Shown: piece after piece, positions 7,401 through 47,700 of the stretch
Layout of the letters: the number at the start of each line of letters is the position of its first letter
Position numbering within the stretch: the stretch's first letter is position 1
Origin: Amoebophrya sp. A120
Taxonomy: Eukaryota > Protista > Dinoflagellata
Length of the DNA stretch: 52,198 nt
Assembly (NCBI GenBank): GCA_905178155.1
Contig: CAJINV010000029.1
Span: 9,911 to 62,108 of the forward strand
Direction of reading: 5' to 3'
The notes under the pieces: generated by a model
The model's input: the letters and a program-made list of their open reading frames with translations, nothing else
What the model was told of the DNA's origin: nothing
Databases searched by the model: none
Position numbers and translations under genes: made by a program

Positions 7401-10400
7401 TCAACATCCTCGACCCCAGACCGGTGTTCTATCGCAAGAAAAAACTGTTTCACTATGAACTTGTGATGCATAGAATAGAACGCAGAACTATTTGTCTTGC
7501 TACACCTGCAAGCTATTGGATTTTTAAGCGCGTTTTCCCTTGGAAAGCGCGCACGGCAAATTTTCTGTGTCATGTGTAGCAAACTTGTGATGCGGATCTT
7601 GCAAAACCATCACAGTGAAACAGTTTTTTCGTGGGATATGTTCTTCATCCACTTTATTCATTTTCGACGGAGCAGCTACAGGTGCCGGCTTTGCGTCCGC
7701 GTGCTGCTCTACTAGTGCTTGCACATCAGCGGAAGAAGTTTTTGTAGTGGTAGTTTTATTGTTCTTCCCACCTGCGGCGCCGCTCGTGGTCGACGTCCAC
7801 TTATCATCTACTATAGGATTGCCTGCTAGATCAAAAACCCGGACGACCTGCTGTCCCGGGTGGACACCGCGTGCTGTGTTCTATCAAATGCAAAAGCATC
7901 GTACTAGTATGAATTGCATGACAAATTTCCTCACCATGAGAAATGGAATTTGTAATGCTGATTGACATAACGAAAAAGATTTGTAATGCATAACTGCAAT
8001 GACTACGAGTACGAGACCTTTGCACTGGATATGTTCCTTGAACACGCAAGGTTCGTCCTGGACGCAAGGCTGTGCAGTATCCTGAGTAAAAACGTCCCCA
8101 CACCAGAGTTGTCATGCAGATTTGCCATGACAGGAACATTTGTGATGCGCAACCCCATGACAGGCATTTTCAATCGTGTTTGGGAACTTGTAATGCTGTA
8201 AACAGGATCAGCAGATCGATTTGTGACGCGGCTTTCCTTGCTAACTTGCACCACCTTACGGACTGAAACTTGTCATGCGTGACTCACAAAACTCCTAGGC
8301 TTGTGTTGCAAAATCCCCATCCTGAGACTGGTGTGGGTACGTTTTATTTTACTCAGGATATGCAGGTTTTTGTCGGTAAGAGGACTAGCGAAGGTTGATT
8401 GCTCTACTGGCCCTCGAGATCCACTGTCCGACCTCGGCTTGCTATGAGAGTGCACAACTAGAAGTACTTACCCCTCCCCATCATTTGTCTATGCAAAATA
8501 CAAAACCAACACTGTGCCTCTTTGCACTGTTTGCATGACAAGTTTTGGCATCTCAATGAATAGCACGACCAACTTCCTGTGCGAATTTCTCATGCAAAAC
8601 CTGCATTCTTGCTGACGCTTGTATTGCTGTTTATGCGATGCAAATGAGGGGGAGGGGGAGTAGTTGTGCACTGTCATACTTGAGCTGGTCCTCGTCGCCG
8701 ATATCTTCCTCGTCCAACATTGACTGTATCAACTGCAAATATGTCTGGGTCTTGTCATGCACGTTTTGCATGAAGCATGATCGGTCTGTGATGCATGCCC
8801 CAGCATCACTGACTCTTTGACCGCTTCTTGATGCCTCTTCCGCATGACAAATGCCCCTACGACCGCGTAGCAAAAGTTACATTCTCTTATTTGCTATTGC
8901 TGCTCATGCAATACAGAGTTTTCCGGAATTCAAATGCAGCATCACAAGTTCTTGCATTCTTCCAGACATCCAGACATATTTGCAGTTAATAGACTGGCCT
9001 GAAGAACGCACTCCGACGTCCCACAACTCTTGCACATCCTGGATGATGGTTACCTCGTTGCGCTATCGTGAGGAAAAATCCCCATTCCCTGTATCGAAAA
9101 GGAGATTTGTGATGCTGGATTTGAGTGCACAAATTTACATGTATTGCTAGAAGGCCAAGAGACGCAGACGCGGCCTCACTTGCAGGCAATTTGTCATGCT
9201 CTTTCCCGCTTCCAGTTGCTTCCTGTCATGCTGAAGACGCAAGGCTGACTCAGGTCAGCCAGCCCTACGGTCTGGATCTCTTTCGTTGTAGCATCACAGC
9301 GGGACTTGTGATCACAAATCATGCTACACAAATCTCCATTTGAGTATGGGGAGGCGAGGTAGTTTTTCATTGTAATATGCGCTCGTAAGAAGGACCTTCA
9401 TGATCGGGCGCGGCCCCCGCCCCGATTCCATTCGATCGGCCTGCATATGCTGTGCAAAAGCACCGCACTCGTAGTACTAATCGCATTCATGCATTGCAAA
9501 TCTTTTTATTCAGGTAAATCCGCATTACAAAATCCGTTTCTAATGCTGAGCAAATTTGTAATGCGATTTCTACTAGTACGATACTTTTGCAAGGCATACT
9601 GCAGCCCGGTCGGCAGTTCCCACGCTCGCGGACGACAGTATCCCGTTGCCACCTCCCGAGGAATCACCTCCAACCACACTCGTGAGCCGCATTCGCAACA
9701 TGGCCAGCAGGTCGTACCGCACGTTTTCCTGTCTCTCCCGGATATTTTCCCTCCGCTCGCGCCGCCGATCTTGCTCTTGCTTGGATCGTATCAAATGCAA
9801 ATATGTCTGGGTCTGGAAACTTGTGATGCTACAATGTGGATGATGGGAAGAGTTCCGAATGCAACCCAGCATGATAACTTTCCAGAACGCTTTTTCATAG
9901 GCAATCCGCATAAAAAAATGCGTTTTGGCATGTACAAAAGAGGCTGCGACTTTTGTTGTTTATGCAATACAGATTTTCTAGGTATGGAAAGATAGCATTA
10001 CAAGTTCCAACCTCCTAGACCCAGACATTTTTGCAATCCATAGATCGCGCCAGTTCGTTCCGCGCGACCTCCTGCACTGTGGTTTCTTGTTTTGTACGTG
10101 GACCAATAAATCTGGTTGCGTCGTCCTATCCTGAGCAAAAACGTCCCCACCCCAGAGTTGTCATGCAAATCTGCATGCCAAAAATGTTTCTCATGCGGAG
10201 CCCCAACATGAGAAGCATTTTCTATGCGTGTTTGGAATTTGTGATGCTATAATCAGCATGATATACTAGATCTAAGATGCTGCTGAACTACCTAAACAGG
10301 ATGACACTACGAGGACAAATTTGTCATGCCAAACGACCAAAGGTGGCTGATTTGTCTAGCAGATTTCCCATCTTGACTCTGGTGTGGGGACGTTTTTGCA

Positions 10401-13400
10401 AATAATACGACCACCGCGGAGGTCATCCCACTCTCTAGTGCTCCCATGATGCACACTATGCGTTGCAAAGCTGTCTGGGTCTGGAAGATCGCAACTTGTC
10501 ATGGTAATTCTGGATACTGCAGAAATCTGTGCTGCATGATTACCAAAAGCTGTCCACTTTTGACCAAGCTGAGAGGGAGCTTCTCATGCAAACGAGGCAT
10601 GATAGAGGTCGGGGAGATGAGTCTGTCATGCTGGGGCATGTATGACAGACCGCACGCACCATAGAAAACCTGCATGACAAGTCTTCCAACCTTCCAGACC
10701 CAGACATTTTTTTTGTATTTGATACACATTCCGTGGTTACAATTGTCGCTTCCATAGACTTATGAACTGCAAAAGCATCGTACTCGTATAAATGCATTAC
10801 AAATTTCCTTAGCATGAGAAATAAAATTTGTAATGCGGGTTCACCTTAAGAAAAAGATTTGTAATGCATGACTGCAATACGAGTACCATACTTTTGCACG
10901 GGATAACACTCCGGAATCCGCGCCGCCATTCGCTCTGCTGCCAGACAAAAAAGACCCGTTATCGTTCTCGTAAACGGTATGGAAGTGTCAGAATCGAAAT
11001 TGATAAAATCGAAAAACTTGTGATGCATAAAATCGATACCAGTTGGATCCTCAGTTTGCAAGCGGCGCATGACAAATTTCGGGAGCACCGAAATCCTGTC
11101 TGTCATGCTGTTTGAGCAAAGAAGACTGCTCCTGTCATGGTACTCTGGCAGCACATTGCATACCCCTAAACAGGCTTACAATCTGTCTCATTTGCCTGCT
11201 CCCCAATACAGGCCTCGAGTGCCCTACATTTTACGCATCACAAATTTTTCGATTTTGTCGATTTCGATCCTGACACATCCATAAACGGCGGTTCGGCTGC
11301 TCGCGTCGGAGTCCGATACTGTCTATCAAATGTAAAAATGTCTGGGTCTGGAAGAATGCAAGATTTGTGATGCAGGTTTTCCATGAGCCATGAGGTCTGG
11401 AATGCGAGACCCAGCATGACAGATTTTTTGAGGTCTCTATCATGCCTTTCCTGCATGAGAAATACCCTCTCAAGAATTTGGTCAAAAGCGGACAGCTTCT
11501 GGTACTCACGCAACACAGATTTTTGCATCATTCAGATTTAGCATGACAAGTTCTGACCTTCCAGACCCAGACATTTTTGCAGTGGATACTGTCATCTCGC
11601 TACTGGGGGTCTTCTTTTTGCGCCCACTGTGGTAGGTATGACAGTACACAACTCCTCCTCGTTCCCCCTTATTTGTATTCTGCATGAACAGCAACTATAC
11701 AGACACCCCCACCAGTGAAGCCTATGCATGACAAGTTAGTGTGCCTAGAGTAGAATAGTACTGTTTGGGCTTTTTCCGGAAAATTCTGTCATGCAAACAG
11801 TACCACGCAGCAGCGCTTGGATTGCAGATTTTGCATAACAAACGAGGGGGACGAGGGGGAGTTGTGCACTCTCATAGTAGGGATCTGGATCCGGCGGAGC
11901 CACAGCCCGGTCCTGTCGCGACACGAAGCTCCCTTTACTGCTCTTTTTACCGTCGCTGCCACCACTTTCCGGAGGCGTTGCGAGGAGACCCTGGTGACGC
12001 CCGCCTGGTCGTCGGGGGTGTTTCTTTTCATTTTCTCCTCCTGGTGTTCGTATGAAGTGCAAAAGTATCGCACTCGTGTAAATGCATATACAAATTTCCT
12101 CAGTATGAGAACTGAAATTTCTAATGCTGATCTACCTCAAGAAAAAGATTTGTAATGCATGATTGCAATACGAGTACGATACTTTTGCACAGCATAGCTC
12201 GCTGCGGCTGCGGCTGCAAGGCGAAGGACCGCGGTCCTTTATCGCGAGGAAAAATCTACTCCCCTCCCCATACCGAAAAGGTAGACTTTCGGAAATTTGT
12301 GATGCTGAGTTGCGGCCATAAATCGCGTCTGTCTTGCAAGAAGGCAACTCCGCAGGCTCAGCCGCATTGTGCAGGCGGTTTGTCATGCAGCTGGGCCTAC
12401 AGCGCGGACGTTTTTCATGCTAAACGCCTAGGCCAAAACCTCTCTACTGACACTTGGCATGGGCCTGCAGTCCTCTCCAGCAAGACAGCTCGGATTTGTG
12501 TACACAAATCCAGCATCAGAAGCTTCGTTTTGGTATGGCGAGGGGGGATTTTTCCTTTTGATATTCTTGACCGCCGGGCACCAGCTCGCGCCACCACCTC
12601 GGCGGGTCGCCTCCTATGCATTGGAAATATCCCTGGATGTCTGGTGGAAACTTGTGATGCAAGGAAGAGAAGAGTGAGCACTCTGTAATGCGCTGCACAG
12701 CATGGTGAGTTATTTTTCCGCGGTTCTGAGGTGCGTACTCCGCATGAGAAACTGCGTTTTTGCATGACAGGCGAGAGGAGCTCTTCGCGGCCACGCAATA
12801 CAGATTTCAGAGTCATACCAGCCTAGCATGGCAAATATAGGAATCTCCCAGACCCAGACATATTTGCATCTGATACCTTCCGAATGAATGCCAGCAAGGT
12901 TGTGGTCGCGCAAAGTGGCGTAGGCATTGTGCTTGGTGAGGACCTCGCTGGTGAGCCAGGGCTGCGCGAACTGGGTACCACTCGCAGCATATCCTGTGCA
13001 AAAGTGTCGTTCTCGTCTAGCAATCATGCATTACAAGTTTGTTTCTTCAGGTGAGTCCGCATTTTACAGATTTCATTTCTCATGCTGAGGAAATTATTTG
13101 TAATGCATTTATACGAGTACGATACTTTTGCACTGCATACAGCACCTCCACCAGACGAGCTTGAAGCTGAGGTGGTAGTTGTGCCACCACGACTATGCAA
13201 GAAAAAAACTGTGTAAGTGTAACTTTGTAGTGCAGAACATGCAACAGAGTTACACCTGTCATGCCAGACAGCCATGAAGTCGTTTTTTCATGTGTGTTTT
13301 CCCTTACAAGCCAGGCATGACAGGTTGTCGCTGTCATGTAGTGCCGATTTGTGATGCTGTCAGCCAAGAAAAGCTACACTAACAGAGTTTTTTTCTTGCG

Positions 13401-15785
13401 ATAACGACCTCCACCGCTTTTTTTCCCACCGCGAGCTGTTGTAGTAGTGCCCCCGGCAAATAAACCGGTAGCTGCGCTCGAGGAAGCTCCTGCCTCGGAA
13501 GTTCTTGGTTCTTGGTGCGGGGCCTGTTGTGTTTTTCTGTTGTGATTTTTGTTTTTTTTGCTATGTGACGATGTTGTCGTTGGTGGAGCTGCTCCGGTTA
13601 AAAATCCACTTGAGTTTTCATCTTTTTCTGCATTTAATACTGGCCCAGCATTTCCTCTCCCTCTCCGCTGCTGGTGCTCAGAAGTACAAGAACTTTGCTC
13701 ACTACTAGTGGCGAAGGCCAGCCGCGGCACGGAAGATTTATTTTGCACTTCTTTATCTAGATTAGTAAAACTAGCCTGTAAAGATGAAAGCAGATGATGC
13801 CCGCTTTGATGTTCCTTTTTTTCTCGGTCGTCCTCCGAAAACAAGCGTCGCTCTTGCTGTGGAAAATGAAAATCTTCACCGGGCCGGGTTGTAGCACTAT
13901 CTTCCCGGGGTGGCGCAAGTCGCGCTGCCAGCGCTGATGCACCACCTAAATTTCCCGCAACGTAGGAGGACGAAGATGAGGCTCCTGATGACGGGGCGAT
14001 AAGTTCTTGCATTTTTGCTTCGGTGAAAGCGGATGACCTGCCGGCCGCTCCTCCAAGAACACCTCCACCCTCCAGTAGAATTGACGCGCTGGAGGCGGAT
14101 GAGGGTCGGGAAGAAGAGGCCGTTGTGAAGATCCTGGCGCGACGACTCACACTTAATTTCGCGACAGCAGCTGCGGGGCCTACGCCCAGGAGTGATATTG
14201 CTGGAAAATCAGTAGTATCAAATGTAAAAATGTCTGGGTCTGGAAGATTCTGAGACTTGTCATGCATGTTTTGCCTGGGCCATGATGTCTGTGATGCATG
14301 CCCTCGCATCACAGATTTTTTGAGGGCCTCGCGATGCCTATTCCGCATGACAAATGCCCTCTCCGCGTAGCAAAAATTACACTCCCTTTGCTGCTCATGC
14401 AATACAGATTTTTTTGGAATCCAAATTCAGCATCACAAGTTGCATTCTTCCAGACCCAGACATTTTTACATTTGATAAGTAGTAGTAGCCCCCGTGCTGT
14501 CGTGGCCCCCTTTCCAGAAACTCCACGACCTCCACGCCTGGTCATCATTCGTGCATCTTTTGTAGCTGTTGTGCGACTGCGACCTTCTTCGCCTTTCTTC
14601 ATGTGGACGAGTCGACGCGATATCAGAAGTGGTCGTTGTAGTAACATGATCAAGCGAATAAAGTCGTGGGCCCCCGCTCGTCCACCCGCCAAGCAGACTG
14701 ACCACACCGACCAAGAAGTTGTACCACGAGGACGACCCTGGTTGTAATAGAAGCTGCTGGTGTAGTTGATGTGTAGTCGTCGGCATGGGGGTCGTGGAAA
14801 CAAGCGTACTCGAAGTGGAAGCTGCGCGTGCGTCCGCGGATAGGCTACAATCACAACTGTTCCGAAGCAGAGGTACTGCAGGTCCTCGTTCACCCACTTC
14901 AACACATTGCGAATACAATCCCGCTCCATGGTTGTGGTCCATGTTCTCCTCAAAAACCGGTGTTGTTCCACAGCAGCTATAAAGGTAGTTGTCCCCGGAA
15001 CAAAATAGAAGTTGGTCATCATCTGGCGCTATTTTGAAAAACCAACTCGGTATTTCTTGCAGAAACAGCGGCAACACCATAAGTTTGAAGAAAACACGGT
15101 AGAAAAAACAGCTGTGCTCGTTTCTCGTGCCTTGATGATTTTGCGGCGGGGGCCGGGACGTGCCAGTAAAAGATATTGTTTTCGACGCGGTCATGGTCAC
15201 GCGACGGTGGCTCCAGTTTAAAATGTTGGGGACATCACCTTCCTGTTTCCTTTCACAAACGGGAACCACACGGGTGTCAGGTTTGTCTTGGCAATGACGA
15301 CGCGTCCAGAGTACTACGTCGGCTCCTCCTTTGCGGCTTCTGCACTGGTGAGTAGAGGCAGCACGACTACACATTTGATGCGACAGAAAAGACCTGAAAG
15401 TGCAGCGGCGCCAGAAACTTGACCACAGAGGTGTTGTTCCTGTTCCTCGTCTTCTATCGAAAAATATTGATGGAATGCCCGCTTTGGTCCTCGTTTTAGC
15501 ATCGTGCAAACGGTGCGTGTGCAGCTTCGGTGCTTGACAGCTTCTGTGTCGGAAAAAACAACACCTGCTTCTCGTTCTGATTACAACCCCTCGCGTGCAC
15601 GACTCGTCCCGTCGGCGGGCTCGCTTTTTACTGCCTGGTGTCCTAGTGCTTGCAACGACCTCCATATTCTCCGCACAACTCGCGGTCCTAGTTCTTTCCC
15701 TTGGTAGTTGTCGTGTGGTGCCGACGTCGGCCACAGCGTTGTTCGTTGTCGTACTTACGCCGTGCAGCTGCGCAGAAGGCTGCAA
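4421..15785 (-). CDS. Gene 2: very large S/T/G/A-rich hypothetical protein (~1800 aa), split by 24 introner-like elements
   Basis: 11365 nt minus 24 elements (5731 nt) minus 24x5 nt = 5514 nt = 1838 codons, ending ...GKQPAPMVK*. Each junction was checked for frame. First ATG is at 15665; start uncertain. Confidence 0.85.
4473..4755. mobile_element. Introner-like element, family F
   Basis: F-type TIR; TSD CAGAA/CAGCA. Confidence 0.88.
5010..5256. mobile_element. Introner-like element, family A
   Basis: A-type TIR (TGCAAATATGTYTGGGTCTGGAA); TSD GCCCC/GTCCC. Confidence 0.9.
5312..5529. mobile_element. Introner-like element, family G
   Basis: TATCCAAGAAGAAAACTGTGTAG / CAGTTTTTATCTTGCATA; TSD GTACT perfect. 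Confidence 0.9.
6483..6743. mobile_element. Introner-like element, family A
   Basis: Degenerate A-type TIR; TSD TGGTC/CGGTG; frame restored. Confidence 0.85.
7430..7638. mobile_element. Introner-like element, family E
   Basis: TATCGCAAGAAAAAACTGTTTCACT / AGTGAAACAGTTTTTTCGTGGGATA; TSD TGTTC perfect. Confidence 0.92.
7882..8031. mobile_element. Introner-like element, family C
   Basis: TATCAAATGCAAAAGCATCGTACT / AGTACGAGACCTTTGCACTGGATA; TSD TGTTC perfect; 150 bp. Confidence 0.92.
8078..8360. mobile_element. Introner-like element, family D
   Basis: TATCCTGAGTAAAAACGTCCCCACACCAG TIR; TSD TGCAG perfect. Confidence 0.92.
8443..8678. mobile_element. Introner-like element, family H
   Basis: TATGAGAGTGCACAACTA / TAGTTGTGCACTGTCATA; TSD CTTGC/CTTGA. 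Confidence 0.9.
8727..8991. mobile_element. Introner-like element, family A
   Basis: A-type TIR; TSD GACTG perfect. Confidence 0.92.
9064..9377. mobile_element. Introner-like element, family B
   Basis: B-type TIR; TSD TGCGC perfect. Confidence 0.9.
9446..9598. mobile_element. Introner-like element, family C (inverted relative to 7882)
   Basis: C-type TIR; TSD CTGCA perfect. Confidence 0.9.
9789..10042. mobile_element. Introner-like element, family A
   Basis: A-type TIR; TSD GATCG perfect; closely similar to 5010 and 41794. Confidence 0.93.
10127..10407. mobile_element. Introner-like element, family D
   Basis: D-type TIR; TSD CGTCC/CGACC. Confidence 0.9.
10457..10724. mobile_element. Introner-like element, family A (inverted relative to 11324)
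   Basis: A-type TIR; TSD CACAC/CACAT. Confidence 0.9.
10761..10905. mobile_element. Introner-like element, family C
   Basis: C-type TIR; TSD AGACT/ACACT. Confidence 0.9.
10978..11283. mobile_element. Introner-like element, singleton family J with ~49-bp TIR
   Basis: TATGGAAGTGTCAGAATCGAAATTGATAAAATCGAAAAACTTGTGATGC and its near-perfect inverse; TSD AACGG perfect. Confidence 0.92.
11324..11588. mobile_element. Introner-like element, family A
   Basis: A-type TIR; TSD CTGTC perfect. Confidence 0.93.
11637..11876. mobile_element. Introner-like element, family H (inverted relative to 8443)
   Basis: H-type TIR; TSD GTAGG perfect. Confidence 0.92.
12051..12196. mobile_element. Introner-like element, family C
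   Basis: C-type TIR; TSD GTTCG/GCTCG. Confidence 0.9.
12240..12563. mobile_element. Introner-like element, family B
   Basis: B-type TIR; TSD TCCTT/TTCTT. Confidence 0.9.
12615..12875. mobile_element. Introner-like element, family A
   Basis: A-type TIR; TSD CCTCC/CCTTC. Confidence 0.9.
12990..13139. mobile_element. Introner-like element, family C (inverted)
   Basis: C-type TIR; TSD CAGCA perfect. Confidence 0.92.
13194..13403. mobile_element. Introner-like element, family G
   Basis: G-type TIR; TSD ACGAC perfect. Confidence 0.92.
14216..14477. mobile_element. Introner-like element, family A
   Basis: A-type TIR; TSD AGTAG perfect. Confidence 0.93.
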
Positions 15786-18104: not shown

Positions 18105-21100
18105 CTATTCCTTCTTGATGTCCTGCGTGCCGCCTGATCCTCTGCTGCTTGTGTTTCGCGTTCGCCTGGCCGCCGCGTCTGCTCCCGCCCGTGAGGATCG
18201 GCTTCGCGAGCGATACTCATCTTCATTGGATGCAGGAGCGGTCGTCGGGCCTGCTGGTCGTGTCAACATTTCTGATGTGATACTTTCGTCTTCTTGCGCA
18301 GTTCTCGTGTTTCCCCACGGCCGCACTGGCCTCCTCGCACTCCCCGCAGCTCCTGAGCTGCTGCTACCGCCGTTGTTGCACCGTCGGGGCGGCGGAGGTG
18401 GAAATCCGATGAAGACGGAAGAGTTCATTTGCGCAGCGGTGGAGGAGCTGGATTTCGATCCTCCCCTCGTTGTTGTGGATTCGTGGTTGTAAACTGTTCG
18501 TGCGCCGCTTCCACCCCCGCCGCCAGAAGACGAATTCTTCGAACTATTGCGGCTGTGCGTATCGTCAGAACTAAACCTTCTCCAAGGGATGACTGGGAGT
18601 TGTGAGGAACAGTTGGAGCCCGCATCCTCGCAAAACCGAGCGGGCGGCGAGGGTCTGAAAGGTGTTGTACGACTGCCTGTAGGCCGGTCGTCGTTAGAAG
18701 TACAGCTGCTTCTCGCAGCCGCATTTGCGGTGGTGGGAAACAATGATCCGAGAATGTTGCCGTAGGTGGTGCAAACCCGCGCCGGCGGTAAGTTCAGTGC
18801 CGGTTCTTCTGATAAATACTTTACCCGCCTCTCCCCAGAAATCTCGTCGAAGCCCGCAGAGGACGAAGAAGTGCTTGACCTGTTGCTCACGGGTGAACAA
18901 GCAACAGCAGCTGCAGCGGAAGCAGCGGCAACATTTTCTTCTGTAGCCATAGCCGTAGCCGTAGCCTTAGCCACGGCCTTCGGCGCAGCCTCAACAGCGG
19001 TCTCTGATGTTGTCAGCGGTCGCATGAGGCAGTGTTTCTGACACTGTTTGTCGCTTCCCGTGTTACTGCTTGGTTCGCTTTTCACGATGTTATTGTCGCT
19101 AGAAGAATTTTGCCCGCTATGAAATGCAAAAGCATCGTACTAGTAGTAGTAACCGCATTACAAATCTGCTAAGCATGACAAAAGGAATTTCTCATGCTGC
19201 TTTACCTTGAGAAAGAGACTCGTCATGCATAATTAGGATTACTACGAGTACGATACTTTTACACAGGATACCCGCTGCTGTTCTGGAGTTCGTCGTCTAA
19301 GTTGCTAAGAAAGGTAGCAAGGGAAGACCGGGTTCGGGAGGGTAGTTGCGCGGGCTCCGACTTAGAGCCATCGTGAAGATCATCCTCTCCTTCGTGTTGT
19401 TGCCGGTCTACTTGCTGAGAACTTGTTGCTAGCAGCTGCAGCGGAGACAACATTCTGCTGCTCGTAGTGCTACCTTGGTCCTCGCTCTTGTGACCACCTG
19501 CAGGACCAGGAGCAGCAGCAGCAGCAGCAGCGCCGCCCCGCTCCCCGTCCAGAAACAACACTACAGTCTTGTCAATGGTCCTCGTAGGCGTCGGGGGAAT
19601 TGCTGGGTCCTCGGCGACGGCTACGACATCGGGTGCGGCTGAGGGCCGTCGAGATGTTGGGGTGGAAGATGGGCGGGGAAGCAATCGGCCCTCCCCTGGT
19701 TATCAAATGTAAAAATGTCTGGGTCTGGAAACTTGTGATGCTGGGTGGCGTATCATGAGGAAGCCATGAGTGCTGGCTCAGCATGACAAAATTCTGAGCT
19801 TCTAGGTGTTGCCTATTCTGCATGACAAACTGCGTTTTTGCATGACAGGAAATTGGGGCTCTTGGGTAACCTGCATGACAGGTTTAAGAGTCATGCCGGA
19901 GAAGCATGACAAATCGCGCATTCTTCCAGACCCAGACATTTGTACATTTGATACTGGTCGTTGTCGTCCCACTGGTGCCACCGCGCCATCCTTGTTCAAC
20001 ACTCCTCCGAGCTGTAGTTCGGTCGCTTCCTTGTTCGTCGTTGTTTCGTGCTCAGCCTCAACGCTTGTCGCAGGAGCAACGACCTCCGCCACTGGAGCAG
20101 CTGCGCGAGATGAGGATGGACATGGAGTGGGTGTGGGAAAACAAGTCCCATAACTTTCTTTCTCCACCCCGCAGAAAGCGGTAATTCGTCCGTCGGAAGT
20201 ACAAGAGGAGGAAAACTGTTGTACAAACTCTCCCGGCACTCCCAGTTGCGAGATCGTGCCGGGTCTTTTCCTCACAGTCACAGCACTAGAAGACGCAGTC
20301 GTTGTTCCTACTGGTCGTGCTTTGTTTCCATCACAAGTAAGCCTCCTCGTGGTCCCGACTGGTACATTTTTCGGACTCAGTAGCGCCGCTGCCGTCCGGT
20401 CGTTCTCTGCGACTTCTTCGCCCGCAAAACCAGTACTGCAATGGGCAGCATGCGGAGGCGCTACCAGCGGTTCTAGCCGTCTGGGTGGAGAGATTTGTTG
20501 CGACGAAAAGCCGCGGTTGTTCGTGGGGGTTGTGATTAAGAACAAATCGACTGGAGTCGTGGCGCTTCTATCCTTCCTGGTTGAAATCGCCTCTTCGCGC
20601 AGTTGCACAACAGGAGTACCTGCACATGCTGCAGTAGAAGAAGAAGATGCGGTCGAGAATGAAATGTCGACGCTGTCGTGGTGGTTGTAGTACGACGTGC
20701 CGGTCTTCGTGCCTCCACTCGGAGTTTCATTTTTTCCAGCACGTGGCTCGTCCTCGTGTCCTTCGGAATAAAAAACCACTTGTTCGCCTTCACGTTCGTC
20801 TTTATTTGCTCGAAACAAGCCTGCCCTCCTCGATGAAAGAGAAGATGCTGTCGTCGCGGTCGAAGATGGGGTTGGCAAAAATTGCAGAATTTTTTCCGCC
20901 TGGTTCGCTGTTAAGCTGGCCGCGGGAACAGTGCCTCGCAGCGGCGACATTATGACAGCAGTGGTTGAGGCCCTCCCGACAGAGCTAGAGACGGAGGACG
21001 TTCTGGTATTCAATCTAGCCTGCTGGCGCGCAGTGCCGCCTGAATTGCCCGACGTGGCCGTTGTACTCGTTTCTACCGTCGATGAAGTTTCCGTCCGCGC

Positions 21101-22356
21101 AGCTGCTGGACCACCAACAACAGCAGCTACCCCCGGATGTGTGTGGTAATGCTGCCTCGACACCAGTATCCAATGCAAATATCGATCTGGGTCCTCTGGA
21201 ACCTTGTGATGCGAAAGTGTGGATATTGGTGGAATAAAGACTTCCAAATGCAGCCAAGCATGACAACTTCTTTCCAGAACGCCAGCGCTTTCTCATGCGC
21301 AGCCGCATGAGAAGCTCGTTTTTGTATGGCACAAGAGGCTGTTACTTCTTGTTTCGTCTGTCATGCAATACAGATTTCAGTTTCACAGGAAAAAAGTAAG
21401 AGCAGCACTTGTACAAGTTCGAAGTTTCCAGACACAGCAGATCGATATTTGCAATGCGTAACCGGTCTCCTTCTAGCCATCCCCCGCCTTTGGTCGGCCG
21501 CTTCGCGGTTTACTGCGGACGAGACCGTAGTAGTTGATACCGGAGAGAGCGACAGGCTAAAATCGCTTTCGTCGTCTGCGTCATTAGAATTCCCCGTGTC
21601 GATGCGCGGCGCATTGGAAATGATGTGCAGCAGCGGTGGCGGGCGGGGGATCTGCCTTCTCGCGGCCGTGGTGGTTCTCCTCTGGGAGGTGGAGGGTTGC
21701 TGTTGTTCTCCTTGAGGAGCTCCTGCCGCAGGTTGTGGTGTTGTTTTTGTATTGCCAGTTGTTGTACTTGCCGCAGCAGTGTTCATGCATGTGCTTGCAG
21801 AAGTTTGTATTGCAGAAGCTGCTTCTGTGCCCTCGTCAAGCTGCGCCATTCCTCGAACAGAAGATGACTCCGAAATTGATGTTTCCTGTACAGGTTGACA
21901 AGGAGTACGTCGCCTTGCCTCGAGCTCCTCCGATGACGCTCGCGCGGAAAAAGCCGCACTAGAAGTCGCAGCCCTACTTTTTTGCTCCGCCAGAAGTTGT
22001 TGTCGTGTTTCGGATATTTTGTTTTGCGAAGATGACGATGATCTTCCTGTGCTGTTGGCAACATGTTGATCTACTTGCTGTGCATCTTCAATTTGGGACT
22101 CCCGTATTTTTACTGGGTCAGCACCAGCAGCATGGTTGTGTGCACGTGCACCAGGCGACGGTGGTGCAGGTAGTCCGGAGGACGCCACTGCAGTCGAAGC
22201 TTCCGGTACGAGAAGCGAGAAAAAAAAGCAGAAGACGCGACCGCTACGATGAAAGGCTGCACGACAACCGAGCCGGAGCAGAAGGAACATTTTTTTCAGA
22301 ATATAAATACCAAAGACAAGAAGGGGCGGCAGAAAAAACGATTCTGTGTTTTCCAT
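18105..22356 (-). CDS. Gene 3: low-complexity protein (~1178 aa) with hydrophobic N-terminus, 3 introner-like introns
   Basis: ORFs 21361-22356, 19802-21247, 19259-19684 and 18105-19085 join in frame after removing 21167-21460, 19701-19953 and 19118-19270 (+5 nt each): 3537 nt. Confidence 0.85.
19118..19270. mobile_element. Introner-like element, family C
   Basis: C-type TIR; TSD CCCGC perfect. Confidence 0.92.
19701..19953. mobile_element. Introner-like element, family A
   Basis: A-type TIR; TSD CTGGT perfect. Confidence 0.93.
21167..21460. mobile_element. Introner-like element, family A
   Basis: A-type TIR, right end CGTA variant; TSD ACCAG/ACCGG. Confidence 0.88.
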
Positions 22357-22599
22357 AGGGACTGCCTACCGGAACTATTTCGAGCTGCTGTGCGATTAGT
22401 TGCACTGCGCCAGATGTTGCTCTCGCTTGTTTGCAGACTACAAAAAAAGGCGAGCAGAGCCAGAGCCATCGATCTGCTCCAGAACACCCACGAAAAGCGG
22501 CATTTTATCGTTTGAAGCTCACGGGTATTGAGGCTTCTCTTGTTATTGGGAACTTAGGGCGGACAGTAAAGACGGTTGAGGCCGGGTGGCGAAAAGCTT

Positions 22600-32336: not shown

Positions 32337-33152
32337 TGTTGACTACTTAGTCGGCTGTCGAAAGTGTTCCCGCTTTAGTTGAGGATGTGAAGTTCGTGAT
32401 TCGAAAGCGAAGTCCGGAAATTTGTACTTCATAACAGGAAAAAAAACGAAAACTCAGTTGTCAAGAGCTGCATTTTGAAGCTCGTCTTTCTCCGAACACG
32501 AGGTACAAAAGCCGCCAGCAGACGTGAAGTGATGGCTATGGAAATCATGTTCTAAATACCACTTGTGAACGAATTGATTTTAATTCGCATGCTATGTGAA
32601 ACTACGTTTTGAATACGTGTGGTTCATCTGCTCTGTGAATTCTAGAGCCCACAGCTCCGGTCCTACCGACGAGATGATGCAGCTTCGGTAACAGGGAGCA
32701 CTTGAATCTGCACCCGGAAAAAGAAGTGCAAAAATGTAGTAGAAAAAACTTCTTTATGTCGCTTTTCGTTTTGCAAACAGCAGTCGGCTTTTCCATTTTG
32801 CAGACACTAATACCATAGTTTTCACCGCCGAAAACGGACGAATGTTGATATCAATATTGACCAAAACGGTTCTAAAAATGATATAAACAAATTAATTCTG
32901 CAAAATTTTTTGATTTTTTCTTGAAAACATCCAGGCATCAAAGATGTACAAAACGAAGTAGATGAACAGAGACCGGGCCTAACGCCAAGTGTGGTCATAT
33001 ATTTGTTTTGTAGGGCTTCCTGCAAAGTACTCACAGGAGCTAAGAAGCCAAGTTTTAGATATGATTCATTTCCTCCACATGAGAATAGACTAGTAATACC
33101 CGCCGAACGCAATTAAGGTCCCCGCGAGGTGGACGACTACCCTACTAGATTT

Positions 33153-36100: not shown

Positions 36101-36613
36101 TTCTTGAGCGCTTTGTTCCTCGTCCTTTTCACTTGTGCTTTTCTCTGGTGGAAGTACATGCGCAGTTCTGGGAACAAGAGGTCTCGGGTCTGGGCCCGGC
36201 GGTGGAAATTGCGAACAAACTGCAAGAACAGTGGTGCTAGCAACACGACTGCACGGAGGTGGACTAGGGCTGGCAGAGCTAGTACCGCTGCTTGCTGTAC
36301 TTCTAAATTTCGACAAAACACGTATACTTCTTGGAAATGCGTGAGGGCTGCGGCCTGATTCTACTCCCCGTTGTGATTCTTGTAGTACTGCCACCAGCTC
36401 TGACTCATCCACGCTGGCAGCGCGACTGCTTCCTGCCGAAGACGGCGAGGTTGTTGCCAAGAAGCTGCTTTTGCCTGGTGTCGTCCAACTACACGAAAGA
36501 AGAGCTATTGAGAAGATGTAGATCCGCGAGAATGTAGCGGATGTGGACCACGTTGAGGGCGCCGGATAGAACGTAGCCGGAACTACACCAGGGTGCCGAC
36601 GTGAGCTCGCCAT
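33153..36613 (-). CDS. Gene 5: low-complexity protein (~709 aa) with N-terminal hydrophobic segment and C-terminal RTAGPEPPL repeats, 6 introner-like introns
   Basis: 2130 nt in frame after removing six elements (+5). Ends RARWLGA*, matching the DPWLGA* end of gene 6. Confidence 0.8.
33164..33415. mobile_element. Introner-like element, family E (decayed interior)
   Basis: TATCGCACAGAAAAAGCTCTTTCACT / AGTGAAACAGTTTTTTTCTGTGCGATA; no TSD; removal gives the WLGA* terminus. Confidence 0.8.
33472..33701. mobile_element. Family A element with replaced or truncated right end
   Basis: Left A-type TIR; right end ...CAATGCGATA lacks the A TIR; no TSD; frame restored. Confidence 0.8.
33789..33938. mobile_element. 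Introner-like element, family C
   Basis: C-type TIR; TSD GTTGC perfect; empty site in the repeat unit at 34038-34042. Confidence 0.95.
34563..34840. mobile_element. Introner-like element, family A (diverged)
   Basis: Degenerate A TIR; TSD ATGTT/GTGGT; frame restored. Confidence 0.85.
35461..35642. mobile_element. Introner-like element, C-like
   Basis: TATG..TGCAAAAGCGTTCTTGTACAACT / AGTTGTACACAACTATTTTGCATAGGATA; TSD GTGTG/GTGTC. Confidence 0.85.
35709..35917. mobile_element. Introner-like element, family E
   Basis: E-type TIR; same 209-bp length as 7430; TSD CAGAC/CAAAC. Confidence 0.92.
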
Positions 36614-37049
36614 TTCTTTGAGAATGGCCGTCGTGCTGTCACCCCGTATTTGACTGGACGGGAAAGCGAAAGCGTATGGTGCGCGGAAGTTGGGCTAAAA
36701 AACGGAACGCAGGCGAGCCGCGGAAAGCAAAACCATTTACGGCTTCTGTCTGGGCCGGATGATCATTCGCAGTAGTACATGTGCCATAGCAATACTGCGT
36801 CTGAGGAATAGGCCATGTGGTTCAGATGGAGCCTAGAGTAGAAGAACATAAAGAGCACACCAGTATATTCATAAACATATTTCTGGCCCTGGCGGCGGCA
36901 AGACCGCGAAGACGTTGAGATGCGAGAGTTTTGAACGCAGACTTCAGCAGCCTCGCCACCACGCTTTCCATGGGAGATGAGCGGATGTAAATCTAAACCC
37001 ACAACTGCGCCAAGTGCCACATTTAGCCTCTATAATCTGGAGACAACAC

Positions 37050-41617: not shown

Positions 41618-41707
41618 TTTGCAAAAACAAAAACAAAATTTAAATTAATTATGCATCGTATACTATAGTTACATTTTGGTAATATAAAAGTAAAACTCCA
41701 TCCATCA

Positions 41708-44700
41708 TCACGCACCCAACCACGGATCACCGCCACTTTCCCCGGAAAAACCCAACCGCGGTGTCTGCGCCGCTTTCGCCATAGGCCGTGGACTATGAAA
41801 TGCAAAAATGTCTGGGTCTGGAAACTTGTGATGCTAAAATGTGCATGATGAAAACACTTCCGAATGCAGTCCGGCATGACAACTTCCCACAATTCTTTCT
41901 CGTAGGCAATCCGCATGAGAAACTGCGTTTTTGCATGACAAAAGAGGCTGCGACTTTTGTTGGTAAATATGCAATACAGATTTTCTAGGTATGGAAAGCT
42001 AGCATTACAAGTTCCAACCTTCCAGACCCAGACATTTTTACAATCCATATGGACTGGCGGTGCGAATGTTCGACGGCCCCAGACGGTTCACAAAGCTTAT
42101 GGGGCTCTCAAACGTTACATTCTCAACTGTTACATGATTTGTCATGCAAAAACACTATCACTATTCACACGACCAAGCCTGCCTTGCATGACAACTTCTC
42201 GACGCGCTACATAGCACTATAATCCGTCCCAAATCTGTAATGCAAAAGGCGCAATCTTCCTCCTGTACTTTTGCCACTCTTGCATTACAAATTCATGTAA
42301 CAGTTGATAATGTAACGCTTGAGAACGCCATAAAGCTTCTCGCCCGGTTTTTCGTAGATGTTGTTGAAACACCACCAGCAATGTTAATATGGTTTAACAC
42401 TCTGGGGCTACTGCTTGTCGAGGTAGTTTCCGGTGTTCTCGTGATTGGCAGAATTCGTGTGAGCAGACGCTTGCTGTTTCCAGGCTGTGGACTGTCTGTT
42501 GTTGGAAATGGGTTGTTAGTCGTTGCGCCACGTGCGTCGATCATGCCACCATGATCTCTGCCAATAATATTTCTGAAACCATCATCCGTATTGGTTCGCT
42601 GTGAAGAAGAACCACTTGAAGAACTTGGCATAAAAGCCCGATTTTGTTCCTCGGAATTGAGATGGTGCAGGTGATTCGGTTGCTGTTGTTGAAGCGGCGA
42701 GCTTGCACTGGACGAAGCTGCAGAAGTGGACGAAATTTTTGCAGTACCAGGTGTAGTTCGTGGCTGATTTTTTGGTATTTCCCTTCCGCCAGCCTCACCA
42801 ACGCTTGTTCCTCTCGCCGTCATAATCGCCAGCGGCTGCAAAACCCGTTTCCCGACCCGCGCCCAGGTGCTAGAAGTAGCCGACCGGGTTGGTGTGTTTT
42901 GCGACGCGGCGCTGTCTTTGCTTGTTCCCTGTCTTGTCGTACTACCAGAGGCCGCGTCGGTCGTGTTAGGAGTGATGTTGCGGACGAGAGCCGTCATTTG
43001 CGCAGGAGTCTTCCAGGGTTGTAACAAGCTACTAGTGGGGGCTGATGTAACCACGGAGCTTCCAATTGCATTACTAGCACCATTTCCTGACGAGCCGGAA
43101 GCTGCACCGTCCGAAGCTGCACCGTTTCCGTTCCTGCAGGACGTGACCGCGGCAAACCCAGAGCCGGCCACGACCGCACCAGTTGAGCAAGATGAGCCTG
43201 TTTGTAGTTGCCTGGTAGTTGAATTTGAAAACTGTATTTCCTTTTCAAACTCCAGCATCAGCGCCACTTCGCGTTCCGCCCGCGACGGCCTCGCGGGATC
43301 GTCCGCCGGCACTTTACGGTCGTGCGTGTCGTCTATCAAATGCAAATACGTCTGGGTCTGGAAGAATGCCAGACTTGTCATGCAGGTTTTCCATGACCCA
43401 TGAGCTCTGGCATGTAGGACATAGCATGACAGATTCTACTGTGAGGGTTCTATCATGCCTATCCTGCATGAGAAAGTGCCTCTCGATTAGGTCCATAGTG
43501 GACAGCTTTTGGTAATCATGCAACACAGGTTTTATTCACGCTTCAGATTTAGCATGACAAGTTGCTTTGTTCCAGACCCAGACATTTTTGCATTGGATAT
43601 CGTCCGTTGCGCCACGAATCCAGCCAAAGGTTTTTGCCAGGTCTTCGTCCGTTTTGCTCAGTGTGCTGTCATATGCATTGCAGATATGTCTGGGTCTGGA
43701 AGGTTGGAACTTGTCATGCTAAATCAGAATCATGCAAAAATCTGTGTTGCATGATTACCAAACGCTGTCCACTTTTGATCAAGATGAGAGGCAGTTTGTC
43801 ATGCAGGATAGGCATGATAGTGATCTCACGGAATCTGTCATGCTAGGCACTCCATTACAGATCATATGGGTCATGAAAAACCTGCATGACAAGTCTAGCA
43901 AAGTTCCAGACCCAGACATTTTTACAGTTGATATGTCAGCGTCTTGACTATCGGAATGAAAAGACGTTGCCGCATGCTGTACTGGTATTGGTAGCTGCAG
44001 TATCGTGTGTTTCAAATTCATCTCATTGGCTGCTGCACCCAAAGTTGTAGCCAAAGGGGGCGCAGGAACGACCTCTGCACCAGCCGCGCAAGGAGGCGTA
44101 GAATCATCGGTGCTACTGCTGGTCGCGAGGCCACGACTGCAACTCGCAAGGTGTCCTTTGACCGACGGTGGAGTTGTGCTCATCTGCTGCTCCAAACCTG
44201 TGTTGTTTTGTTCTTGCGGGGTCGAATTATAAGCTGATTCGTCTTTGCTCGTCGTCGTGGTCACTACACCGAGCTGTTGCACGAGGGTCGTCGTGTTCTG
44301 CACGTTCTTACCCATAGCCGCCTTTTCGACAGGGTGAATTGAGGATGTCTGTGTTGCAGGACCACGTTCACGGGACGACGCCGAAGATGCAGGTTGAAAG
44401 GGCGATGCTGACGTGAAAAACGCAGTGCCACTGGTGCTCGATGATGGGCCACCATAATTTCTCACACTCGCAGTAGAGATCCCACCCGTAGTTCCAGCTG
44501 CAACGGGCATTGCTGAAGACGATGATGGCGAAGAAGACTCCGGAACACGAACCGTTCGCAGATTGTAATTGATTTCCAAAAGTTTGGTTGCTTCCGCTAA
44601 AGCTGCAATTGACTGCTCCTCCTCATTATTTGCGTCATCATCTTCGCCAACATTCGCAAGACCTTTCACCTCCGCTGCACCAGCACGATGCGCAATAACA

Positions 44701-47700
44701 GTACTAGCTTGGTCCGAAAGTTTGCTGCTTTTTCCAGAACCAGTTGAGAATGGTGCTGTGCTTCTTGTCCACGCGCTTTGTATGCCAGTCTCGACTTTGG
44801 TCGACAGCGGTGAAGACAAGTCCTCGCTCGACAGGTTTAGTTGCGAAGAGCTGTTTTGTAAAGATGAAGAATCGCCTTCGCCGGAACAACCTGATAATGC
44901 CAGACAGTCGACGCCGTGAGTAGTTGTAAAATTCCGCCGGCCAACATGCGCGTCCTCAACAATTGCACCTTCCCCGCGACCAACATCCGTATTTTCAGGC
45001 AGCGCTCCAACGATCATTTCGCAATCGGGAACGAAACTGCTTCTCGCAGTACCACCACTGACCGCCGAGGCAGAAGTAGTTTTCGACCTGTTTCTAGTAC
45101 TATCGCCGCTGCTCTTGGAGTCGTGTAGTAGTTCCGTGTCATCGCCGGCTAACACGAAGGTGAAAGCGGAAGTGGTTCATCTCATTGGTTTACTGTAGTT
45201 GTTTTTGATGCCCGAATTAGAAAGAGCGTCACCGTGGTAATCCCCATCGCGGACATCATCTCCTGTCCGAGGCCCCGTAGCGGTGGACAAAACATTATCA
45301 AGAAAACTGTTGTAGCCAGCACTGGCCCCCGTAGCAGTATCCTGTTTTTTCCCTCCTCCGCCCCACGCCTGTTTTCGCCGCTGCGTTCCGGTCTCTACTT
45401 TGGTTGAGCTCGGCGACAACGGAGAGTATGGAAAAAGTGAGAAAAAACGTAGTTCGCATATAGCATTACAGATTCAAAACACGACGGCTGCATCGTGGAA
45501 CCAGAAAGAGAAAACAATTTCAAAAACATCATTGTCATTATGGTACGTGACATGCACATTCTCCTAAACCGCATCAAAGCAAACAGGTTTTTTACCTTCT
45601 TAAACACGAGGAGTCGTCCCTGGAACTATCGCTTGAGGAAGAGGGCGACGACGCCGTGCCAACGGTAAAAACATCATTCCGCCCTGGTTTGCAACCGAAT
45701 AAACCGGCTTGCTCTGGTACAGCCTCCATCGCAAATCCGCTTACTGCAGAAGACTTCGAACCTGCGCGCACTCCAGTTGTATCATGGCCGACCTGCTGTT
45801 GTTGCAGAGATGAAGACGCCTCGATGTAGCTATGGTTTGGTGCGCTGTGTTGCGGAGCAGCCAACACGTTGAGTGAAAACAAAACTTCAAGCTCTCGTGC
45901 ATCTTCTCCCAGCCCCGGAATGGAGTTGCCCAAAAGTAGCTGGCTGGCCGCTTCTGCGCGCTGCGTTTCGGTGGATGAGCTCTCTGTTGCAGTACCTGAA
46001 GACGACGAAGAGGTGGTACCGCTAGAGGAACTCGAACTACCCAAAACACTGGAGCAAGAGCCGCTCGAAGTGTTCATTTTACCATCATGATCATTGTTCA
46101 TCCCAGCAGCGTATCAAGTGCAAAAATGTCTGGGTCTGGAAGAATTCATGTTTGTCATGCTTGTCTGGCATGACTCTTAAATCTGTCATGCACGTTACCC
46201 AAAAGCTCCGTTTTTCTGTGATGCAGAAGCGCAGTTTGTCATGCAGAATAGGCAACACCAAGGAGCTCAGACACTTATCATGCTGAGCCAGCATTTGTAG
46301 CCTCATCATGAGACGCCACCCAGCATCACAAGTGTCCAGACCCAGACATTTTTCCTTTTGATAGAGTGCTTTGGCTTTGGCTTTCCTCCCCCCACGCCGT
46401 CCCGACGCCGGAACCGGGGGCGAGTCGTATCATGCGCGGAGCAGGTTGTCGGAGCAGAGAGGAAACGGCTTTGGTTCGTTGTTGTTCCGCAGCTGGCTGC
46501 AACACCATCGCCGGATTCGTAGTTGATCTGCCGAGCGGCGGAAAAGAAGTAGAAGAAGAGGATCCTTGTTTTTGCAACTGACCAACATGATCATGCGCCG
46601 CTTTGTTACTGCGTGAAAACGCCTCGTCCTCGGAAAGCCAGCGAGGTTCTTGCGAAGACGACGACCCAGAGGTTGCTGCGGGGACGGCTAACAAGCTCGA
46701 ACCCAGCATGACACCGGAGTTGACAGATGTACCTGATATACATTGCAAATAAACCAAAAGTACCTGATAGTTTTGCTTGGAAAAATACAGAATATTTTAC
46801 ATATATGCAAAGTGCTGCAAAAAGGCAAGCAAAAACTCTAGTAAGAAGTGCTGATTTACCGTATATACAAACTAGATTTTGATGTCACGGAGTGTTGCAA
46901 CTACTACGATTCATGCCATGCAACTTGCACAGAGGATACCTTTATCGTGAAGAGATGAACCAACTTCACCAACAGTGGTCACACCTTCGCTTTGCGCCCT
47001 GCTTTTGGCCATCGGTGTATTTTCGGTAGCTTGATTCACCACGACCCCCCGCTCTTGCACAGCACCTCCTCGGATCCATGTCAACACGGGCGCTGGCCTT
47101 TTTGCCAACGACGCACTGCGGAAGGTCGGTGCCCGGGGTTGGTGGGTTGGGGCTCGGGGTTCGTAGATTTTTACTGTCGCTGGGCCAGAGCTCGACGCGG
47201 AAGTTGTTGTTTCAGGTCGTCGGGTTTGGTCTTGATCGCTTTCCTCCACCGTTCTAAAACCAAAGTCCGTTGTTCTCCTCACCTCTGTCCCGGTAGAAAG
47301 TGCCGACGCTGCAGATTTATTTTCAATTCTCCTCATTTGTTCTTCACCCTCGGAAGAAAAATCGGCACGACCGGAACAAGGTCCTAAACTAGCTGGATGC
47401 AGGAGCTCCGCCTCCTCCATCGGCGCGGCGTATAGTGTCGGCGTGACCAGTTGGGGATTAAAAGATGATAATGTCGCAGTAAAATTGGATGTGGGAACAC
47501 GAGTGGGTCTACTTGTTCTAGTTTGTGTTGCGTAAACCAAATTTCCCTGCTGTCGATTGGTAGGCGCCACGCCACCTCCCGAAGATCCCCCGCCGAAGAC
47601 CGCTTGCTGCGAAAATTGGACCTGAGAAAAAATAACCTGACTTTGATTCACATTCAATGACGTGGCTCCTAAAAAGTGATTTTCTCCGGCGCCAACGCCG

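What the first reader, a model, noticed from the sequence alone, without database searches (positions are those of the whole stretch)
7882..46363. Excision is orientation-independent: RNA hairpin splicing or IES-like DNA elimination?
The same family sits in both orientations in minus-strand genes (C 7882 vs 9446/12990; D 8078 vs 31213; H 8443 vs 11637; A 43334 vs 43672 and 19701 vs 46112) with the same +5 rule. Spliceosomal introns are directional. Symmetry fits either a structure-guided RNA endonuclease/ligase acting on the terminal stem, or DNA-level excision that keeps one direct repeat, as for ciliate internal eliminated sequences. The sequence alone cannot separate these.
Basis: partly seen in the sequence, partly recalled or inferred. 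Interest (0 to 1): 0.8.

Follow-up and report, generated by a model that had tools for sequence, protein, structure and literature searches.

The report
Two-way hairpin introns of Amoebophrya
Transposon-like introns of the marine parasite Amoebophrya, described in 2021, are missing to the base from RNA-like sequence whichever way round they sit and carry no normal splice signals, so they are likely cut from the RNA by machinery that would measure from their hairpin ends, not deleted from the DNA.

Summary
Confirmed and extended. The window is Amoebophrya sp. A120 DNA. Its 44 TAT...ATA elements with 5-nt target duplications are the published A120 introners (PMC7789003). In RNA-like contigs, 15 of 15 listed joints (19 found) skip exactly element + 5 nt, in both orientations of families A, C and H. 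None can be read G[T/C/A]-AG, and a free GT-AG register is bypassed. Both orientations restore the frame equally in a second assembly. Where the duplicated copies differ, the transcript-upstream copy is kept (5 of 5), with the cut 0-1 nt from the stem in two cases. DNA elimination is unlikely (single nuclear lineage; DNA contigs unexcised) but not formally excluded. Best reading: RNA-level, hairpin-and-ruler removal (~0.9), most likely by the U1-less spliceosome (~0.5); a nuclease/ligase route is ~0.3. The elements are known; I found the two-way removal and fixed geometry in none of the papers searched. The scan noted similar hairpin introns on other genomes.

The parts
4420..15785 (-). Host gene 1: 1837-codon open frame after removing 24 elements + 5 nt each (low end approximate); no Pfam hit in the parts scanned
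   Evidence: annotated A120 protein P0001 is spliced across 14216
7882..8031 (+). Family C introner (strand = family orientation label), perfect 5-nt duplication
   Evidence: joint 7876>8032, 155 nt
8078..8360 (+). Family D introner
   Evidence: joint 8072>8361
8443..8678 (+). Family H introner, duplication 4/5, upstream copy kept
   Evidence: joint 8437>8679, both=4, runs X3 and X5
8727..8991 (+). Family A introner
   Evidence: joint 8721>8992
9064..9377 (-). Family G introner (opposite to the copy at 553-867)
   Evidence: joint 9058>9378; orientation
9446..9598 (-). Family C introner, reversed
   Evidence: joint 9440>9599, 158 nt, X3 and X5
9789..10042 (+). Family A introner
   Evidence: joint 9783>10043, X3, X5, X8
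10127..10407 (+). Family D introner, duplication 4/5; a GT-AG register exists but is not the one in the contigs
   Evidence: joint 10121>10408, both=2; registers
10457..10724 (-). Family A introner, reversed, duplication 4/5, upstream copy kept
   Evidence: joint 10451>10725, both=4
10761..10905 (+). Family C introner, duplication 4/5; cut within 1 nt of the stem
   Evidence: joint 10755>10906, both=1
10978..11283 (.). Introner with no relative in the window
   Evidence: joint 10970>11282, 311 nt
11324..11588 (+). Family A introner
   Evidence: joint 11314>11585, 270 nt
11637..11876 (-). Family H introner, reversed
   Evidence: joint 11631>11877, X3, X5, X8
12051..12196 (+). Family C introner, duplication 4/5; contig piece ends at 12045, so the cut is within 1 nt of the stem
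   Evidence: table 8; the joint row itself was not shown
12240..12563 (-). Family G introner
   Evidence: frame; contig length fits removal
12615..12875 (+). Family A introner
   Evidence: frame
12990..13139 (-). Family C introner, reversed
   Evidence: joint 12984>13140
13194..13403 (+). Family B introner
   Evidence: joint 13188>13404
14216..14477 (+). Family A introner, perfect terminal repeat
   Evidence: frame; P0001 spliced across it
18105..22365 (-). Host gene 2, 1181 codons after removing 19118-19270 (C), 19701-19953 (A) and 21167-21460 (A)
19701..19953 (+).
   Evidence: frame only
25676..28478 (-). Host gene 3, 863 codons after removing 26906-27111
28923..32342 (-). Host gene 4, 993 codons after removing 30571-30719 (C) and 31213-31491 (D, reversed)
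   Evidence: P0002 spliced across 30571
31213..31491 (-). Family D introner, reversed
   Evidence: frame only
33153..36694 (-). Host gene 5, 736 codons after removing six elements (33164, 33472, 33789, 34563, 35461, 35709)
41708..45176 (-). Host gene 6, 809 codons after removing 41794, 42098, 43334 and 43672 (low end approximate)
43334..43599 (+). Family A introner
   Evidence: frame only
43672..43933 (-). Family A introner, reversed
   Evidence: frame only
46112..46363 (-). Family A introner, reversed, duplication decayed to 3/5; joins 45592-46106 to 46364-46796 in one 315-codon frame
   Evidence: frame only
553..7638 (.).

Best explanation
These are the Amoebophrya A120 introners, MITE-like insertions with TAT...ATA inverted ends and a 5-nt duplication that RNA-like contigs lack to the base in either orientation, and they are likely removed from the pre-mRNA by an altered, U1-less spliceosome that would find both ends through the terminal hairpin. 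Shown: the removed piece is always element + 5 nt; no G[T/C/A]-AG register fits; where the two duplicated copies differ, the transcript-upstream copy stays. Inferred: the element reads UAU at its 5' end and folds the same way whichever way it lies, so a directional machine sees the same substrate. It would cut 0-1 nt before the stem (most likely 1 nt, giving an N-U-A start like the U-A of GUA) and 4-5 nt after it by distance, without reading a 3' sequence. That ruler removes exactly one duplicated copy, which would explain why families with 5-nt duplications could spread harmlessly in exons. I put RNA-level, hairpin-and-ruler removal at about 0.9 and the spliceosome as its catalyst at about 0.5.
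For: Precise joints, 15 of 15 listed (19 found), both orientations of A, C and H; one 1095-nt contig of run X3 carries 13 of them. Frame restored in both orientations in a second assembly: 31 of 50 and 18 of 30 at +5, against 10-14 of 50 and 4-7 of 30 in the other two frames. Ends pair in the predicted fold in 41 of 42 elements on either strand. No 3' sequence signal: AG before the cut in 9 of 119 (9.8 expected) or 11 of 119 in the other register; G at +1 in 43 (36.6 expected). Joints stay exact with only 1-2 nt of shared ends. For the spliceosome: the nine commonest published A120 non-canonical sites all start N-T and the nine A25 ones T-T (PMC7789003 Table S4), which fits a cut 1 nt before TAT. 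Of 18 copies with a mutated terminal TAT, the 6 changed at the first base are all at the 3' end (5 of 5 with a clear strand call, post hoc). TATC versus TATG is skewed with transcript direction, G at the 3' end in 33 vs 11 (p=0.001, one of about 30 tests). A120 keeps 83 of 89 spliceosomal proteins and U2/U4/U5/U6 but no U1 was found, and 15% of its canonical introns have the same repeat layout.
Against: The four contig runs are one sample, their RNA status is the tool's guess, and contigs show neither strand nor efficiency. No G-U over A-C excess in the stems on the transcribed strand (21 vs 26; 53 vs 54), so selection on RNA pairing is not seen. No branch point, lariat or AG is shown, and a free GT-AG register at 10127 is bypassed. 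The published N-T pattern may come from how the authors' pipeline placed ambiguous junctions; the paper itself calls the borders unknown. Each family has informative mismatched duplications in one orientation only, so polarity set by the element rather than the transcript is not excluded (about 1 in 16 by chance). The strand skews are not independent of family (family C 10:1), and insertion bias could cause them. The retained spliceosome is needed anyway for the 35% canonical introns.
Confidence: 0.5

Rival explanations
1. RNA-level removal by a spliceosome-independent, structure-guided endonuclease plus ligase that cuts at the 5' foot of the terminal stem and 4-5 nt past its 3' foot, like the route proposed for euglenid and diplonemid nonconventional introns.
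For: No splice-site sequence at either cut beyond the element's own end; a canonical register is ignored at 10127; terminal TAT variants at either end still restore long frames in 5 of 18 cases (frame only); U1 not found; euglenid introns leave as full-length circles and an RNase III plus ligase route has been proposed (PMC11282704 section 6; PMC12621601 passages).
Against: No bulge-helix-bulge: flanks outside the stem do not pair (2-9 of 42 per position). The N-U-A start in both strains and the apparent protection of the first U only at the 5' end look spliceosome-like. No enzyme candidate was sought or found.
Confidence: 0.33
2. Programmed DNA excision that keeps one direct repeat in transcribing nuclei, as for ciliate IESs.
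For: Inverted ends, one repeat kept and symmetry fit. The contig runs lacking the elements are not on record as RNA. DNA of intracellular stages was not examined.
Against: The trophont nucleus divides and the sporont holds many nuclei ahead of dinospore formation, with no soma/germline split described (PMC9478091 passages); heritable excision would purge the elements (inference). Among 8 listed pieces of DNA-like run X1, four junctions are bridged unexcised by 31 nt or more on both sides (X1 may be the window's own source; 1377 joints not shown). 0 of 243 empty-site junctions in the fetched loci and window (a small, element-enriched set). The kept copy follows transcription in 5 of 5, about 0.04 under a random crossover. 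Contigs of the RNA-like runs also carry unremoved element ends from other loci (table 7; could be DNA carry-over).
Confidence: 0.04
3. The joints are reverse-transcriptase template switches across a hairpin between direct repeats (artefact; mechanism recalled, no paper found).
For: A hairpin flanked by short direct repeats is the classic setting (recalled).
Against: Retention puts stops in 42 of 43 elements and removal builds an 1837-codon frame; 13 joints lie in one contig path; joints are exact with only 1-2 nt of shared ends.
Confidence: 0.02

Closest known systems
Amoebophrya sp. A120 introner elements / non-canonical introns (Farhat et al. 2021, PMC7789003)
   Same: Same organism (P0001 and P0002 are 100% identical A120 proteins); TAT + 7 + AAA repeat motif; 3-5 nt direct repeats; about 240 nt; hairpin model; RNA-seq-validated non-canonical junctions.
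   Different: Nothing in kind. In the sections and supplement text read, the paper does not discuss element orientation ('orientation' refers only to genes; 'strand' and 'excis' have 0 hits) and calls the borders variable or unknown. Here the total is fixed at 5 nt and the cut lies 0-1 nt from the stem.
Two-way introners of Polarella glacialis and Aureococcus anophagefferens (Roy et al. preprint 10.1101/2020.10.14.339549)
   Same: TIR transposons that make introns in either orientation, removing one duplicated copy, often with an orientation bias.
   Different: They use G[T/C/A]...AG sites taken from the element or the duplication. Here 0 of 15 contig joints allow that, and AG is not enriched in 119 copies.
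Euglenid and diplonemid nonconventional introns (PMC11282704, PMC12501133, PMC12621601)
   Same: MITE-like origin, paired ends, short direct repeats, no GT-AG, unknown machinery.
   Different: Different lineage and end motif (CAG/CTG at +4 to +6 there); circular intron products are shown there and untested here.
Ciliate internal eliminated sequences (features recalled)
   Same: Transposon-derived, precise removal, one terminal repeat kept.
   Different: They need a separate somatic nucleus; Paramecium IESs are bounded by TA with one TA kept, whereas here the duplication is a free 5-mer outside TAT...ATA.

Membership tests
Amoebophrya A120 introner elements | 8-20 nt inverted repeat joining the intron ends | tested here: met
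   ends paired in 41 of 42 predicted folds
Amoebophrya A120 introner elements | 3-5 nt direct repeat at the borders | tested here: met
   perfect 5-mer in 24 of 42 and 202 of 246 in a second assembly
Amoebophrya A120 introner elements | end motif TAT + 7 variable + AAA | tested here: met
   definition
Amoebophrya A120 introner elements | repeated families in A120, absent from transcripts, non-canonical ends | tested here: met
   RNA status of the runs is a guess
U2 spliceosomal intron (incl. Polarella/Aureococcus two-way introners) | G[T/C/A] at the 5' end and AG at the 3' end | tested here: not met
   0 of 15 joints in any allowed register (one allows AT-AC); 3 of 37 copies in the second assembly allow G[T/C]-AG; no AG excess in 119
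U2 spliceosomal intron (incl. Polarella/Aureococcus two-way introners) | lariat with a branch-point A; dependence on U2/U5/U6 | not testable with these tools
   no raw reads covered the gene
Ciliate IES | separate somatic nucleus | not testable with these tools
   literature passages describe one dividing nuclear lineage
Ciliate IES | precisely excised junctions in DNA | tested here: inconclusive
   none among rows shown for X1 (1377 not shown); 0 of 243 in fetched loci; stage of the DNA unknown
Ciliate IES (Paramecium type, recalled) | TA at both ends with one TA kept | tested here: not met
   the kept repeat is a free 5-mer outside the element
Euglenid nonconventional intron | CAG/CTG pairing at +4 to +6 of the intron ends | tested here: not met
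   base counts at the 5' end; definition
Euglenid nonconventional intron | excised as a full-length circle, no lariat | not testable with these tools
   needs intron-enriched RNA
tRNA/archaeal bulge-helix-bulge intron (recalled) | 4-bp helix between two 3-nt bulges holding the cuts | tested here: not met
   flanks outside the stem pair in only 2-9 of 42 per position

The most novel reading that the evidence does not exclude
A120 runs a second, spliceosome-independent mRNA splicing system: a nuclease/ligase that recognises a terminal hairpin from either direction and cuts by a fixed 5-nt ruler with no splice-site sequence. It would clear tens of thousands of transposon insertions from exons and let any TAT-ended element with a 5-nt duplication spread without cost.
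Probability: 0.3. Interest if true: 0.88.

Novelty: already known. Interest (0 to 1): 0.5.

Why it matters
How Amoebophrya removes about 30,000 repeated non-canonical introns without U1 has been open since 2021. This window narrows the answer. Removal works in both orientations, always takes element + 5 nt, needs no AG and no perfect direct repeat, and starts within 1 nt of the stem. Either the spliceosome can place a 3' cut by distance from a hairpin with no sequence signal, or a separate RNA cut-and-join system handles mRNA introns at genome scale. Mismatched duplications give a ready way to map the cuts genome-wide, and a lariat-versus-circle assay would decide between the two.

Tried and rejected
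No whole genome is held for the window or for the second assembly, so no genome-wide count was possible. No RNA holder listed on record. All four RNA-like runs have no cover at 16112-16817; a part without cover is not used as evidence. X7 showed none of the 15 listed joints. Annotated proteins were sought to read junction residues at 6483, 12240, 31213 and 46112: two searches found nothing, and P0001 and P0002 cross only perfect duplications, so the cut at 0 versus 1 nt and the polarity of reversed copies stay open. G-U versus A-C test: no bias. AT-richness of the mismatched copy: no direction (5 vs 5). Search for hairpin elements without TAT in the window gave background only (14-15 of 18). 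No long autonomous partner among the fetched loci: four 457-834 nt elements, longest frame 137 codons. No match of the A-family end in viral contigs. No Pfam family in six host segments. The shared subterminal 8-mer as a branch point was considered and rejected: D copies carry it all one way, the reversed copy at 31213 still restores its frame, and two elements lack it. Earlier notes on this genome: none.
Full report
What is there. The window holds 44 elements of 145-324 nt that begin TAT, end ATA, have paired ends and sit between two copies of a 5-nt word. The duplication is perfect in 24 of the 42 tested, against at most 5 in 10,000 shuffles; lengths 4 and 6-9 nt give none. With the ends trimmed off, all five named pairs score far higher reversed than forward; H is weakest but aligns end to end.

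Organism and prior description. An exon matched a protein labelled Amoebophrya sp. A120 at 100% identity, spliced across the element at 14216; a second crosses 30571. Farhat et al. 2021 (PMC7789003; abstract, sections 10-12, 16, 19, 20, 24, passages and supplement text read) describe A120 introner elements. They have inverted repeats starting TAT, seven variable bases and AAA, and direct repeats of 3-5 nt; 29,850 copies were found. U1 was not detected and the borders were called unknown. These are those elements.

Frame test. Removing each element plus 5 nt gives minus-strand frames of 1837, 1181, 863, 993 and 809 codons, and 736 in a sixth gene; offsets of 3, 4, 6 and 7 do not. +5 is the best of three frames for 37 of 43 elements, and retention puts a stop inside 42 of 43. 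Frame fixes only 2 mod 3.

Transcript-like evidence. Four contig runs that the tool guesses to be RNA (one sample) were laid on 7640-18200. Of 19 joints found, 15 were shown, and all 15 skip exactly element + 5 nt. They cover C+ twice, C- twice, A+ three times, A- once, H+ and H-, D+ twice, G-, B+ and one singleton. X3 shows all 15 (13 in one 1095-nt contig), X5 nine, X8 four, X7 none. On the coding strand none of the 15 can be read GT-AG, GC-AG or GA-AG in any allowed register; one allows AT-AC. At 10127 a GT-AG register exists, but the base in the contigs excludes it. Five junctions have mismatched duplications, and all keep the transcript-upstream base. They bound the cut to 0-1 nt from the stem (10761, and 12051 from the piece end), 0-2 nt (10127) and 0-4 nt (8443, 10457).

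Second assembly. A scan with the A-family end returned 173 loci (171 in the script box; 11 of 64 parts of the collection scanned), none overlapping the window's exons. They hold 246 unique family-assigned copies, 202 with a perfect 5-nt duplication. Of 137 copies with enough flank, 80 had a strand call from A/T skew. In these, +5 left at least 60 open codons on both sides in 31 of 50 copies in one orientation and 18 of 30 in the other, against 10-14 and 4-7 in the wrong frames. Orientation counts were A 28:19, C 9:3, D 5:2, G 4:2, B 3:3, none significant alone.

Signals. Across 119 oriented copies (79 from loci, 40 from the window; four window elements without a usable gene context or duplication dropped) there is no AG before the 3' cut and no G at +1 beyond background. 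Stems show no G-U over A-C excess on the transcribed strand, which does not help the RNA-pairing model. TAT is not invariant: found without using the ends, 215 of 242 copies with a perfect duplication have TAT at both ends. Of 18 variants, 5 still clearly restore long frames, with the change at either end. Two post hoc hints of directional reading: all six first-base variants lie at the 3' end, and where ends differ at base 4 the G lies at the 3' end in 33 vs 11 (confounded with family). The published table of commonest non-canonical sites starts N-T in all nine A120 rows and T-T in all nine A25 rows. That agrees with a cut 1 nt before TAT, but may reflect how ambiguous junctions were placed.

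DNA branch. In DNA-like run X1, four junctions are bridged unexcised among the 8 pieces listed, and none of the 15 joints shown is a precise excision, but 1377 were not shown and X1 may be the window's source. No empty site was found for 243 junctions in the fetched loci. Electron microscopy describes one nucleus that divides into many ahead of dinospore formation (PMC9478091, passages). With no disposable nucleus, excision would be inherited and the elements lost (inference). I give DNA elimination 0.04.

Directional splicing does not forbid two-way introns: Polarella classes and Aureococcus make spliceosomal introns in either orientation (10.1101/2020.10.14.339549, passages). The unusual point in A120 is that no splice-site sequence is borrowed from the duplication.

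Mechanism. Shown: fixed total of 5 nt, both orientations, no canonical register, no need for a perfect repeat. Inferred: removal from RNA (about 0.9), with ends found through the hairpin and the 3' cut placed by distance. For the catalyst I commit to the U1-less spliceosome (0.5) on the N-U-A start, the apparent 5'-only protection of U and the precedent in other dinoflagellates. A nuclease/ligase route like that proposed for euglenozoans (PMC11282704 section 6; PMC12501133 and PMC12621601 passages) gets 0.33. Polarity set by the element rather than the transcript is not excluded, since each family is informative in one orientation only.

Novelty. The elements and the hairpin idea are published. 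Two-way removal and the fixed cut geometry in Amoebophrya were not found in searches, nor in term look-ups in PMC7789003, PMC12130899 (supplement files 13 and 14 not searched), PMC9860276, PMC11282704 and PMC11453091. Figures were not visible, and Figs 3, 4 and S19-S25 of PMC7789003 may show part of this; subscription papers are not in the library. Ciliate IES features, bulge-helix-bulge geometry and template switching are recalled, not read. Earlier scan notes describe similar hairpin introns in other genomes; they were not checked and are not used as support. Verdict: real, known elements with a useful new constraint on an open mechanism; interest 0.5.

Noticed in passing
window, all elements: A degenerate 8-nt subterminal motif shared across families: 151 of its 161 window matches lie inside the 44 elements (10.5 of 52.2 kb), up to 6 per element in both directions; absent from 26906 and 33164. 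Likely a transposase-binding repeat.
   Followed up: partly
window 33164-33415 and 33472-33701: Two elements without a matching 5-nt duplication inside a tandemly duplicated exon unit, probably chimeras of two insertions. Removing 33472 + 5 nt keeps the repeated peptide in frame; a contig of run X7 shows its junction unremoved.
   Followed up: partly
window 11502-11588 (look-alike): Raw RNA run X9 (184 reads) and contigs of X3, X7 and X8 share one loose end before an A-family-like right end: an RNA with one element end attached to unrelated sequence. It could be a one-armed copy that is not removed or the end of a long autonomous element.
   Followed up: no
terminal repeat positions 4-7: Pairing drops to 0.31-0.77 at bases 4-7 between a 3-bp terminal helix and the longer inner helix (0.76-0.98), giving an internal loop near the cut sites (ends selected on TAT).
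   Followed up: partly
window 1060-1204: A decayed element-like stretch with one recognisable end and the subterminal motif.
   Followed up: no
window 4420-15785: The public gene model P0001 (486 aa, partial) covers only the start of an 1837-codon frame; P0002 (74 aa) is a fragment of a 993-codon frame, so annotation here is split.
   Followed up: partly
window 28534-28660: Tandem array of 13-nt units just upstream of host gene 3.
   Followed up: no
window 22500-24400, 36900-38400, 49300-50900: GC-rich stretches (up to 0.64 per 2 kb) free of introners, between the host genes.
   Followed up: no
window 39800-40370 and 42330-43330: Duplicated exon sequence (88% over 167 nt, 40067 vs 42454) pointing to a partial gene duplication.
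   Followed up: no
L032:632-1465, L036:3314-3770, L069:571-1051, L070:3862-4492: Longer TAT-ended elements (457-834 nt) with perfect 5-nt duplications and no long frame.
   Followed up: partly
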